A stretch of 320 nucleotides of DNA from Escherichia coli. GTDB lineage: Bacteria; Pseudomonadota; Gammaproteobacteria; Enterobacterales; Enterobacteriaceae. The translations under genes were made by a program, and so were the position numbers. Of the stretch, positions 1 to 318 are shown one piece after another (position 1 is the stretch's first letter; every line of letters begins with the position of its first letter). The notes under the pieces are model-generated. The model worked only from the letters and a program-made list of their open reading frames with translations. It made no database searches and was not told where the DNA came from. The DNA lies in NCBI RefSeq assembly GCF_003334255.1, contig NZ_QOWU01000263.1; one strand, written 5' to 3'.

Positions 1-4
1 TTTA

Positions 5-16
5 GGGCGCTTTTTT
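5..16. terminator. Possible distal half of an intrinsic terminator, truncated by the window edge: GGGCGC followed by TTTTTT
   Basis: On the + strand, GGGCGC (5-10) is followed directly by a T6 run (11-16). The complementary GCGCCC stem arm would lie left of position 1 and is not visible. On the minus strand the same region reads, just after the tRNA CCA, A6-GCGCCC, i.e. the A-tract side of a possibly bidirectional terminator. Only half the structure is present, so this is tentative. Confidence 0.3.
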
Positions 17-20
17 ACAT

Positions 21-96
21 TGGTGGGTCGTGCAGGATTCGAACCTGCGACCAATTGATTAAAAGTCAACTGCTCTACCAACTGAGCTAACGACCC
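21..96 (-). tRNA. tRNA-Lys, anticodon UUU, 76 nt with genomically encoded 3' CCA
   Basis: Reverse complement of 21-96 is GGGTCGTTAGCTCAGTTGGTAGAGCAGTTGACTTTTAATCAATTGGTCGCAGGTTCGAATCCTGCACGACCCACCA. It folds as a canonical cloverleaf: acceptor stem GGGTCGT/ACGACCC (7 bp), D-arm GCTC/GAGC, anticodon stem GTTGA/TCAAT with loop CTTTTAA (U33, anticodon UUU at window 61-63, A37), T-arm GCAGG/CCTGC with loop TTCGAAT, discriminator A, CCA. Recognised from memory as the E. coli-type tRNA-Lys(UUU) of the lysT family; the specific paralog is not assignable from sequence alone. Confidence 0.96.
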
Positions 97-144
97 ATAC
101 GGGTGTTACCTGAAAGATTTTTACTCGGGGCCAATCTTTAAGAT

Positions 145-162
145 TGGTGGGTCGTGCAGGAT
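145..162 (-). repeat. Orphan 18-nt tRNA-Lys 3'-end fragment (tRNA positions 59-76: end of T-loop, T-stem 3' strand, acceptor 3' strand, discriminator, CCA)
   Basis: 145-162 (TGGTGGGTCGTGCAGGAT) is identical to 21-38 and 243-260, the 3' termini of the two full genes. Identity stops abruptly at 163; the following sequence shows no tRNA body (no T-stem 5' strand, anticodon arm or D-arm). It therefore cannot fold into a tRNA and is a remnant, not a gene. Confidence 0.85.
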
Positions 163-242
163 GACTCGCTTCGCTCGCCCTACGGGCCGTTGCTGGCGCA
201 ACGTTATCCTTCACGCTTAACATCTGAGTTTGATGTTAAAAC

Positions 243-318
243 TGGTGGGTCGTGCAGGATTCGAACCTGCGACCAATTGATTAAAAGTCAACTGCTCTAC
301 CAACTGAGCTAACGACCC
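243..318 (-). tRNA. tRNA-Lys, anticodon UUU, 76 nt with genomically encoded 3' CCA (second copy, identical to 21-96)
   Basis: 243-318 is base-for-base identical to 21-96 (76/76). Same cloverleaf; anticodon at window 283-285. It lies upstream of the 21-96 copy in the direction of transcription. Positions 319-320 are probably the first bases of a short spacer to another upstream gene, which is not visible here. Confidence 0.96.

What the first reader, a model, noticed from the sequence alone, without database searches (positions are those of the whole stretch)
131..147. Perfect 17-bp palindrome (8+1+8) overlapping the pseudo-CCA end
CCAATCTT-t-AAGATTGG at 131-147 is a perfect inverted repeat with a single central base, and it includes the TGG (CCA on the minus strand) of the orphan tRNA fragment. 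In RNA it could form a 6-bp stem with a 5-nt loop that sequesters the pseudo-CCA. As DNA, a dyad of this size is typical of a dimeric protein binding site. A further AAAGATT copy at 113-119 can pair with AATCTTT at 133-139, giving an alternative 7-bp stem with a 13-nt loop. The palindrome could be coincidental given the AT-rich sequence.
Basis: seen in the sequence. Interest (0 to 1): 0.3.

Follow-up and report, generated by a model that had tools for sequence, protein, structure and literature searches.

The report
Conserved RNA hairpin masking tRNA-Lys CCA
The palindrome is real: it encodes a small RNA hairpin in the spacer between two lysine-tRNA genes of E. coli, kept by compensatory mutations across many enteric bacteria, that pairs the (pseudo) CCA end with the start of the spacer and probably affects how the multi-tRNA precursor is processed.

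Summary
The 8+1+8 palindrome at 131-147 is confirmed. The window is the E. coli lysT tRNA operon with its genes on the minus strand: tRNA-Lys, a 146-nt spacer, tRNA-Lys. The palindrome begins exactly at the CCA of an 18-nt orphan tRNA-Lys 3' end that closes an RtT-like repeat.

It is not a coincidence and not a protein-binding dyad. In 21 distinct orthologous spacers from about 15 enterobacterial genera, a hairpin always starts at this CCA. Its inner pairs change by compensatory substitution (AU, UA, CG), its length varies from 13 to 27 nt, and G.U wobbles outnumber A.C mismatches 10 to 1 on the tRNA-sense strand. More than half of E. coli genomes carry an imperfect version. Most of those sampled have a U.G wobble.

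In E. fergusonii, S. bongori, P. vulneris and about a quarter of E. coli genomes, the same hairpin follows a real tRNA-Lys. It is therefore a genuine 3'-trailer element.

Most likely it is a cis-acting RNA structure that masks the ACCA end during processing of the precursor. That mechanism is inferred, not shown. The hairpin is absent from Rfam and from the papers searched.

The parts
131..147 (-). The palindrome, which is an RNA hairpin of the lysT-operon precursor. RNA 5' arm 147->141 (CCAAUCU), loop 140-138 (UAA), 3' arm 137->131 (AGAUUGG). The first three paired bases are the pseudo-CCA.
   Evidence: fold; covariation
145..162 (-). Orphan 18-nt copy of the tRNA-Lys 3' end (AUCCUGCACGACCCACCA: T-stem 3' strand, acceptor 3' strand, ACCA).
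   Evidence: family D2; identical to 21-38 and 243-260. Searches show one such copy in every long spacer of the operon.
153..215 (-). RtT-like structured module. The closing helix CGUGAAGGAU (215->206) / AUCCUGCACG (162->153) encloses three small hairpins. Only ACCCA (152->148) separates it from the hairpin.
   Evidence: Rfam RF00391 hit of 54.4 bits (gathering 45); consensus structure
217..239 (-). First trailer hairpin (UUAACAUC/GAUGUUAA), starting 4 nt after the real CCA of the upstream tRNA-Lys. It also covaries across genera.
   Evidence: I6; pairs 4-12/21-29
97..130 (-). Mostly unpaired tail, which is the 5' leader of the downstream tRNA-Lys. It has an invariant GAGU (126->123) 4 nt after the hairpin and a semi-conserved AUCUUUCAGG.
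   Evidence: invariant columns
243..318 (-). Upstream tRNA-Lys(UUU), the lysY position.
21..96 (-). Downstream tRNA-Lys(UUU), the last gene of the operon in this strain.
1..20 (-). Start of the operon's Rho-independent terminator (AUGUAAAAAAGCGCCCUAAA...).
   Evidence: full hairpin visible in L001/L002

Best explanation
The palindrome encodes a small RNA hairpin in the polycistronic lysT-operon precursor (minus strand of the window). It belongs to a conserved 48-nt inter-tRNA-Lys spacer module: hairpin, 4 nt, GAGU, then an A/U-rich leader. The first nucleotides of the trailer fold back on the CCA, and in most genera on the whole ACCA, of the preceding tRNA-Lys 3' end. In K-12-like and window-like E. 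coli an RtT-like repeat carrying a duplicated 18-nt tRNA 3' end lies between the real tRNA and this module, so the hairpin sits on a pseudo-CCA. In E. fergusonii, S. bongori, P. vulneris and about a quarter of E. coli genomes it sits on the real CCA. SHOWN: the location in a transcribed spacer, the predicted fold, pairing conserved through compensatory and wobble changes, and strand specificity. INFERRED: it acts in cis during precursor processing by holding the RCCA motif and the AU-rich bases after it in a duplex. That would hide them from enzymes that need them single-stranded: the RNase P L15 loop, RNase E (which usually cuts 1-3 nt after the CCA), and the trimming 3' exonucleases. The duplex would also give processive 3'->5' exonucleases a stopping point. 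In the RtT-containing form it would additionally help neutralise a decoy 3' end that is complementary to the 5' acceptor strand of the neighbouring tRNA-Lys genes.
For: Identity and transcription: tRNA-Lys genes on the minus strand; 100% match to the E. coli NCTC86 lysT operon between cpoB and nadA. The operon is made as one ~1100-nt transcript. RNase P cuts it 3'->5', and the long 3' trailers are removed by RNase II/PNPase and then RNase T (PMC4176162).
Fold: the hairpin is in the MFE and centroid of the whole spacer and forms locally at -7.1 kcal/mol, z = -4.0.
Covariation: in 21 distinct spacers, 90% of cells are paired against 17-52% when the partner is slid by 1-3 columns. There are 14 double-change cells and 0/500 shuffles reach the observed values. 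Pair 4 is AU/UA/CG/GU, pair 5 is UA/CG/UG, pair 6 is UA/CG/AU/UG. RNAalifold finds the same helix independently. The discriminator A pairs with the base after GG in 18/21 sequences, so ACCA pairs with UGGU.
RNA level: within stems there are 10 G.U against 1 A.C. More than half of E. coli genomes carry an imperfect version, which was CCAAUUUUAAAGAUUGG (U.G) in most of those sampled.
Hairpin length varies from 13 to 27 nt.
The same module lies behind real tRNA-Lys genes: E. coli ZLWT type, E. fergusonii with the identical 17-mer, S. bongori with a UUCG loop, P. vulneris, and L039.
Predicted probability that the CCA is paired: 0.97 in this tail class against 0.32 for shuffled tails.
Pairing of the 3' RCCA is a documented anti-determinant for bacterial RNase P (PMC9433436).
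Against: There is no experimental mapping at this site. The only processing study of the operon does not mention the hairpin and gives no ends inside this spacer in its text, and no supplement was available.
Masking the CCA is not a general rule in these operons. Class-B tails (P = 0.07), the hairpins 4 nt after the CCA (0.09) and terminators (0.01) leave the CCA free.
Three class-A-like tails lack the hairpin (L008, L021, L038). The one S. enterica strain examined lacks the module. In Kosakonia the stem is shifted off the CC. The hairpin is therefore dispensable in some lineages.
The stem is weak, at -3.8 to -7.9 kcal/mol. The sampled compact E. coli allele has an internal U.C mismatch.
In the window's own context the CCA belongs to no tRNA body, so any RNase P effect is indirect.
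The shuffle control ignores phylogeny (a caveat stated by the tool). Transcription-associated mutation bias could contribute to the G.U excess.
Confidence: 0.55

Rival explanations
1. The hairpin defines and stabilises the 3' end of a spacer-derived RtT-like small RNA. After RNase P cuts at the downstream tRNA, 3' exonucleases stop at the hairpin, and the resulting RNA has a role of its own, such as an sRNA sponge like other tRNA-spacer RNAs.
For: The hairpin lies 5 nt after the closing helix of an RtT-like module. Trailers in this operon are removed by RNase II/PNPase, which by general knowledge stall at stems. The tyrT RtT RNA is a stable processed spacer RNA, according to the annotation notes.
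Against: The same hairpin is conserved where no RtT unit is present: E. fergusonii and S. bongori, P. vulneris, and compact E. coli. The tyrT RtT repeats have no CCA-containing hairpin. The other RtT-like units of the operon, those with class-B tails, have none either. No paper in the library reports a stable RNA from this spacer.
Confidence: 0.15
2. The hairpin has no function. It is a relic of the tRNA-Lys trailer that keeps its palindromy through DNA-level template-switch ('quasipalindrome correction') mutation or through gene conversion among operon repeats.
For: The operon is highly recombinogenic. It varies between 6 and 7 tRNAs, and RtT units are present or absent within E. coli. Some lineages have lost the hairpin. 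The stem is small and AT-rich.
Against: Template switching produces perfect complements, yet imperfections are almost all G.U on the transcribed sense, 10 to 1. Stems of different sequence and length are kept at exactly the same anchor (CCA ... GG-N4-GAGU) in about 15 genera, while loops and the neighbouring tail diverge. The UGG partner is invariant in 21/21 sequences although it is not part of any tRNA gene.
Confidence: 0.18
3. It is a DNA-level dyad: a binding site for a dimeric regulator or recombinase, for example one acting at the boundary of the duplicated tRNA 3' end.
For: It is a perfect 17-bp dyad in this strain, and it abuts the end of the 18-nt repeat at which RtT units are gained and lost.
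Against: The inner half-site bases are not conserved and the spacing of the invariant CCA/TGG varies from 13 to 27 bp. More than half of E. coli genomes have an imperfect dyad. No promoter-like site is found in the window. The site lies inside a transcription unit. In metagenomes the 17-mer occurs only in unrelated, non-recurrent contexts.
Confidence: 0.04
4. It is a switch between two mutually exclusive stems, 131-138/140-147 against 133-139/113-119.
For: In E. coli 9 of 10 bases can pair (I1).
Against: 62.7% of cells are paired against 47-54% in slid controls, and 62/500 shuffles do as well. Most pairs are broken in other genera. The stem is absent from the MFE and centroid folds.
Confidence: 0.03

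Closest known systems
RtT RNA / tyrT-operon repeats (Rfam RF00391)
   Same: Both are spacer repeats in a tRNA operon that end with a duplicated tRNA 3' end including CCA. The window's spacer matches the model above threshold, and PGAP annotates a further copy downstream of the operon.
   Different: The Rfam model ends at the CCA, so only 145-147 of the palindrome lie inside it. The tyrT repeats have no hairpin that includes their CCA. The hairpin also occurs without any RtT unit.
5'-leader / 3'-RCCA pairing as an anti-determinant for bacterial RNase P (PMC9433436)
   Same: The RCCA of a tRNA 3' end is held in a duplex by flanking precursor sequence. This is known to slow formation of the active RNase P complex.
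   Different: Here the partner is the 3' trailer, not the 5' leader. In the window the CCA is a pseudo-end. No kinetic data exist for this case.
3'-trailer and terminator stem-loops of E. coli tRNA precursors (lysT/valU operon terminators, leuX; PMC4176162, PMC2811032)
   Same: They are stem-loops immediately downstream of a CCA that must be removed by RNase P, RNase E or PNPase before final trimming.
   Different: They are GC-rich, followed by a U-tract, and leave the CCA unpaired (P = 0.01). This hairpin is AU-rich, has no U-tract, is internal to the operon and includes the CCA (one search finds no terminator-like site here on the minus strand).
Functional tRNA-spacer RNAs such as 3'ETS-leuZ (from my own knowledge: Lalaouna et al. 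2015; not checked here)
   Same: It is a conserved, structured piece of a tRNA operon spacer.
   Different: No evidence was found here for a stable product or for pairing with sRNAs.

Membership tests
RtT RNA (RF00391) | Covariance-model match above the gathering score that covers the element | tested here: not met
   The spacer scores 54.4 bits (gathering 45), but the match ends at window 145. 14 of the 17 palindrome bases are outside the model. The 5' third of the alignment is borrowed from the upstream tRNA.
RtT RNA (RF00391) | The hairpin accompanies RtT units generally | tested here: not met
   The tyrT RtT copies lack it, class-B RtT-like units lack it, and it occurs without RtT in E. 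fergusonii and S. bongori.
Rho-independent terminator | G+C-rich stem followed by a U-tract | tested here: not met
   No terminator-like site at 131-147 on the minus strand. The stem has 3 G-C pairs of 7 and is followed by CCCCGAGUAAAAA.
Dimeric-protein DNA operator (dyad site) | Conserved half-site bases at fixed spacing | tested here: not met
   Only the outer CCA/TGG is invariant. The inner bases covary and the total length ranges from 13 to 27 bp.
Conserved cis-acting RNA stem-loop of a pre-tRNA spacer | Lies in a transcribed spacer, on the transcribed sense | tested here: met
   The tRNA genes are on the minus strand. A single polycistronic transcript spans the spacer, which was probed with oligonucleotides 8 and 9 (PMC4176162).
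Conserved cis-acting RNA stem-loop of a pre-tRNA spacer | Base pairing maintained by compensatory and wobble substitutions | tested here: met
   G.U to A.C ratio of 10:1.
Conserved cis-acting RNA stem-loop of a pre-tRNA spacer | Measurable effect on processing (cleavage sites, order, kinetics) | not testable with these tools
   Needs mutants with Northern blots or end mapping. The published study gives no ends in this spacer.
RNase III substrate | Roughly 20 bp or more of duplex (general knowledge) | tested here: not met
   The stem is at most 7-8 bp.

The most novel reading that the evidence does not exclude
The trailer-RCCA hairpin is a built-in timer for precursor processing. While the spacer is attached, the ACCA of the upstream tRNA-Lys is locked in a duplex and is a poor RNase P and RNase E substrate. 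Only after RNase P has cut the downstream tRNA and exonucleases have eroded the 3' arm is the RCCA released. This would produce the unexplained 3'->5' order of RNase P cleavage reported for the lysT operon. In RtT-containing spacers the same hairpin, together with the RtT closing helix, would disarm a decoy acceptor strand that could otherwise mispair with neighbouring tRNA-Lys 5' ends.
Probability: 0.17. Interest if true: 0.55.

Novelty: new member of a known kind. Interest (0 to 1): 0.38.

Why it matters
Structured elements in bacterial pre-tRNA spacers are known, but this one is in no Rfam family and is not mentioned in the only processing study of the operon or in any paper found here. [quoted passage not shown] It also shows that the tails after the orphan CCA ends are genuine tRNA trailers, and that RtT-like units are gained and lost by recombination at the 18-nt tRNA 3' repeat. 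That bears on how tRNA gene copy number varies within E. coli. If the hairpin has no effect on processing, it remains a well-documented case of structure conservation of unknown purpose.

Tried and rejected
1. The alternative stem 113-119/133-139 was counted on the alignment and is no better than the slid controls.

2. I tested whether masking of the CCA is a general design of every tRNA-Lys or pseudo 3' end in these operons. It is not. Only the class-A tail, and some GGUGG trailers, pair the CCA.

3. I tested whether the hairpin is a general RtT feature. The tyrT repeats lack it.

All but one (L064) were in unrelated contexts, which is chance in a very large database. The scan says nothing about other copies in the E. 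coli genome. A whole-genome scan of E. coli for the bare 17-mer could not be run, because BLAST E-values are too high for 17 nt. The 66-nt segment occurs once per genome (median 1).

5. The allele of locus L004 (CCAATCTCCAGGATTGG) is absent from the 5,426 complete E. coli genomes.

6. I tested whether the tail 97-127 is a degenerate second copy of the pseudo 3' end. The alignment score is not significant (p about 0.06).

7. Literature searches for a stable RNA, Hfq target or mapped cleavage in the lysY-lysZ spacer found nothing. No supplement of PMC4176162 was available.

8. The long-range helix GUGAAGGAU/AUCUUUCAGG in the single-sequence MFE fold is not in the consensus structure.

Full report
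WHAT THE WINDOW IS. ARAGORN and Rfam find two identical tRNA-Lys(UUU) genes on the minus strand, at 243-318 and 21-96. The 320 bases match E. coli NCTC86 at 100% and lie in the lysT tRNA operon between cpoB and nadA. This strain has six tRNAs (Lys-Val-Lys-Val-Lys-Lys), whereas K-12-like strains have seven. In transcript sense the window reads: tRNA-Lys; a 146-nt spacer (242->97); tRNA-Lys; and the beginning of the terminator. According to Agrawal et al. (PMC4176162) the operon is made as one ~1100-nt precursor. RNase P cuts that precursor in the 3'->5' direction. This leaves lys pre-tRNAs with trailers of up to 150 nt, which RNase II/PNPase and then RNase T remove. RNase E cuts inside the long spacers only when RNase P is inactive.

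THE OBSERVATION. CCAATCTT-t-AAGATTGG at 131-147 is a perfect 8+1+8 inverted repeat. Its TGG (145-147) is the CCA of an 18-nt orphan copy of the tRNA-Lys 3' end (145-162, family D2). Perfect arms of at least 8 nt with a gap of at most 1 nt arise in 0.7% of dinucleotide-preserving shuffles of the window and 0.26% of shuffles of the spacer. With gaps up to 8 nt the figures are 3% and 1.3%. This is suggestive but not conclusive.

ANATOMY OF THE SPACER. A consensus fold of 21 orthologous spacers gives four parts:
- a trailer hairpin 4 nt after the real CCA (window 217-239), which itself covaries;
- an RtT-like module (153-215) closed by CGUGAAGGAU/AUCCUGCACG, which uses up the T-stem part and the first bases of the orphan acceptor strand;
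- five unpaired bases (ACCCA) followed by the hairpin of interest, whose first three pairs involve the CCA;
- a mostly unpaired tail of about 30 nt, with an invariant GAGU four bases after the stem, which doubles as the 5' leader of the next tRNA-Lys.

The E. coli hairpin is present in the MFE and centroid structures of the whole spacer. Locally it folds at -7.1 kcal/mol, z = -4.0. Rfam's RtT model (RF00391) matches the spacer at 54.4 bits but stops at the CCA, so the hairpin belongs to no described family.

COMPARATIVE EVIDENCE. One scan of species-representative genomes used the pattern RtT core, then 55-85 nt, then the tRNA-Lys 5' end. It returned 41 loci of Enterobacterales. The tails after the orphan CCA fall into two classes. 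Class B (UCCUGAAUGAUUAAAGCAG...) is conserved in sequence and is unstructured at the CCA. Class A, the window's class, always has a stem that starts at the first C of the CCA and ends with GG four bases before GAGU, but the stem sequence differs between genera:

| Organism | Hairpin |
|---|---|
| E. coli (window) | CCAAUCUUaAAGAUUGG |
| Enterobacter cloacae | CCACUUUaAAAGUGG |
| Citrobacter koseri | CCAAUUUuAAAUUGG |
| Citrobacter MGH106 | CCAAUUUAuUAAAUUGG |
| Kluyvera georgiana | CCAUCUaaAGAUGG |
| Citrobacter 18056 | CCAUCUuugAGAUGG |
| Klebsiella spallanzanii | CCAAUuucgAUUGG |
| Silvania | CCAAUCauuaGAUUGG |
| Huaxiibacter | CCAGUuauAUUGG |

On a MAFFT alignment of 21 distinct sequences (A1), the 7-pair helix has 90% of cells paired, against 17-52% when the 3' partner is slid by 1-3 columns. 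It has 14 cells with changes on both sides, and no shuffle out of 500 reaches the observed pairing or covariation score. Pair 4 occurs as AU, UA, CG and GU; pair 5 as UA, CG and UG; pair 6 as UA, CG, AU and UG. RNAalifold recovers the helix on its own, both in the tail alignment and in the full spacer. In 18 of 21 sequences the discriminator A also pairs with the base after GG, so the whole ACCA is paired with UGGU. The window's allele is one of the three exceptions.

The predicted probability that the CCA is paired is 0.97 for class-A tails against 0.32 for shuffled tails. It is 0.07 for class-B tails, 0.09 for the hairpins that start 4 nt after a CCA, and 0.01 for terminators. Masking the CCA is therefore a specific property of this module, not of all 3' ends in these operons.

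RNA OR DNA? Three observations point to an RNA structure on the tRNA-sense transcript.
- Within the stems there are 10 G.U pairs and 1 A.C mismatch. On the opposite strand, or in duplex DNA, those G.U pairs would be mismatches.
- The distance between the invariant CCA and UGG ranges from 13 to 27 nt. A dimeric DNA-binding protein would not tolerate that.
- The perfect dyad is not fixed even in E. coli. Of 5,426 complete genomes, 5,331 carry the 66-nt segment. About 2,430 match the window at 95% identity or better, and the three such variants sampled keep the perfect palindrome. About 2,900 match at 90-95%. Four of the six variants sampled from that group carry CCAAUUUUaAAGAUUGG, with a U.G at pair 6. 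One has the pseudo-CCA changed to CUA, which gives another U.G. One is the compact form described below.

No promoter-like site is found in the window. A caveat is that transcription-linked mutation bias could add to the G.U excess, although it is unlikely to produce a ratio of 10 to 1.

THE TAIL IS A GENUINE tRNA TRAILER. In the E. coli ZLWT type the RtT unit is missing, and the same tail follows a real tRNA-Lys with a 48-nt spacer to the next gene. There the stem has one U.C mismatch. From the coverage statistics, roughly 1,270-1,330 E. coli genomes appear to have such compact forms. This estimate is indirect.

Loci fetched by synteny through CpoB show the same arrangement in other species. 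E. fergusonii has no RtT units at all and carries the identical 17-mer directly on a real CCA. S. bongori has a real tRNA-Lys followed by CCAAUUuucgAAUUGG. P. vulneris has a real tRNA-Lys followed by CCACuuucugGUGG. C. rodentium and Leclercia have the pseudo-CCA form with CCAAUuuuuAUUGG.

The module is not universal. The S. enterica strain examined lacks it, in Kosakonia the stem is shifted off the CC, and three class-A-like tails (L008, L021, L038) have lost it.

The simplest history is that a tRNA-Lys, a 48-nt spacer and a second tRNA-Lys form the basic unit. RtT-like units, each carrying a copy of the 18-nt tRNA 3' end, are then inserted or deleted by recombination at that repeat.

MECHANISM. 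Shown: this is a transcribed, strand-specific RNA hairpin that has been maintained by selection and that pairs the (pseudo) CCA. Inferred: it acts in cis on precursor processing.

The facts that make this the best reading are as follows. The 3' RCCA must be single-stranded to pair with the L15 loop of RNase P, and pairing of the RCCA with flanking sequence is a documented anti-determinant (PMC9433436). RNase E normally cuts 1-3 nt after the CCA in single-stranded AU-rich RNA (abstract of PMC2190699), and that is exactly the sequence buried in this stem. The trailers of this operon are removed by processive exonucleases, which by general knowledge stall at stems.

In the RtT-containing form, the RtT closing helix and the hairpin together leave only ACCCA of the orphan acceptor strand free. 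This would stop the orphan strand from pairing with the GGGUCGU 5' strand of the adjacent tRNA-Lys genes. RNAalifold predicts that misfold readily when the first 7 nt of the next tRNA are included.

None of these effects has been measured. The published study does not mention the hairpin and reports no ends within this spacer in its text. I put 0.55 on 'a selected cis-acting processing hairpin that works by masking ACCA', and less on any single enzyme.

RIVALS. There are four.
- A 3'-end stabiliser for an RtT-like spacer RNA (0.15). This is weakened because the hairpin persists without RtT units, and other RtT units lack it.
- A functionless relic kept palindromic by template-switch mutation or gene conversion (0.18). 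This is weakened by the G.U excess, the invariant UGG, and conservation of the anchor while the surrounding sequence diverges.
- A DNA operator or recombination site (0.04).

COMPARISON WITH KNOWN ELEMENTS AND NOVELTY. The closest described elements are:
- RtT repeats, which are adjacent to the hairpin but do not contain it;
- leader-RCCA pairing as an RNase P anti-determinant, where the same motif is masked but by a different partner;
- trailer and terminator stem-loops of tRNA precursors, which occupy the same position but have a different composition and leave the CCA free.

Nothing in Rfam or in the searched literature describes this hairpin. I class it as a new member of a known kind, namely conserved stem-loops in pre-tRNA spacers. 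Its distinctive feature is that its 5' arm is the ACCA end itself.

VERDICT. 'Coincidence' and 'protein dyad' are rejected. The RNA hairpin that sequesters the CCA is supported and extended to real tRNA ends. Its function is plausible but untested. Interest is 0.38: not surprising in kind, but a clean, covarying and easily testable element that could explain a published and unexplained feature of lysT-operon processing.

Noticed in passing
window 217-239 (minus strand): A second hairpin (UUAACAUC/GAUGUUAA) starts 4 nt after the real CCA of the upstream tRNA-Lys. It also shows compensatory and G.U changes across genera, for example UUAAUGUCU/AGAUAUUAA in Enterobacter.
   Followed up: partly
window 153-215; L001 2365-2490; L002 spacers: Every long spacer of the lysT operon contains an RtT-like structured unit ending in an 18-nt copy of the tRNA-Lys 3' end. 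PGAP annotates only the copy downstream of the last tRNA as 'RtT sRNA'. The Rfam alignment for the window's copy borrows its 5' third from the upstream tRNA.
   Followed up: partly
window 123-126 (GAGU in RNA sense): GAGU lies exactly 4 nt (3 nt in C. rodentium) after the hairpin and is invariant in all 21 class-A tails, although the bases around it vary. No explanation was found. It does not fit the RNase E RN|WUU motif well (judged by eye from my own knowledge of the motif, not tested with a tool).
   Followed up: no
whole window against L002, L050, L175: The operon varies in copy number and structure within E. coli: 6 or 7 tRNAs, and RtT units present or deleted so that two tRNA-Lys genes are 48 nt apart. 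E. fergusonii lacks all RtT units. This is consistent with recombination at the 18-nt tRNA 3'-end repeats.
   Followed up: partly
window 110-119 with 206-215: In the single-sequence MFE fold, GUGAAGGAU (the 5' strand of the RtT closing helix) pairs with AUCUUUCAGG in the tail instead of with the orphan T-stem strand. This helix is not in the consensus structure. The tail also resembles the orphan 3' end weakly (p about 0.06).
   Followed up: partly
L002 2300-2583 and many loci (trailers of type ..GGUGG): Several real tRNA-Lys trailers carry a conserved (U)GGUGG 6-9 nt after the CCA that can pair with CCACC(A) of the tRNA end. In Chimaeribacter and Enterobacillus the real trailers form 9-10-bp stems that include the CCA (CCAUCAUUU.../...AGAUGAUGG).
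   Followed up: partly
L033 (record titled Chryseobacterium sp. 18061) and protein P0086 (Vagococcus sp. WN89Y): Records labelled as a Bacteroidota and a Firmicutes species carry an enterobacterial lysT-type operon and a CpoB protein 88% identical to that of E. coli. These are probably mislabelled or contaminated assemblies.
   Followed up: no
L040 (Citrobacter MAG), class-A tail: The hairpin is expanded to 27 nt (CCAAUUUAACAUCGAAUAUUAAAUUGG) with about 11 pairs. It looks like a fusion of the CCA hairpin with part of the UUAACAUC trailer hairpin.
   Followed up: no
L001 2270-2520 (downstream of the window): The terminator after the last tRNA-Lys is duplicated. The order is terminator, RtT-like unit with an orphan CCA, then a second identical terminator. 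[quoted passage not shown]
   Followed up: no
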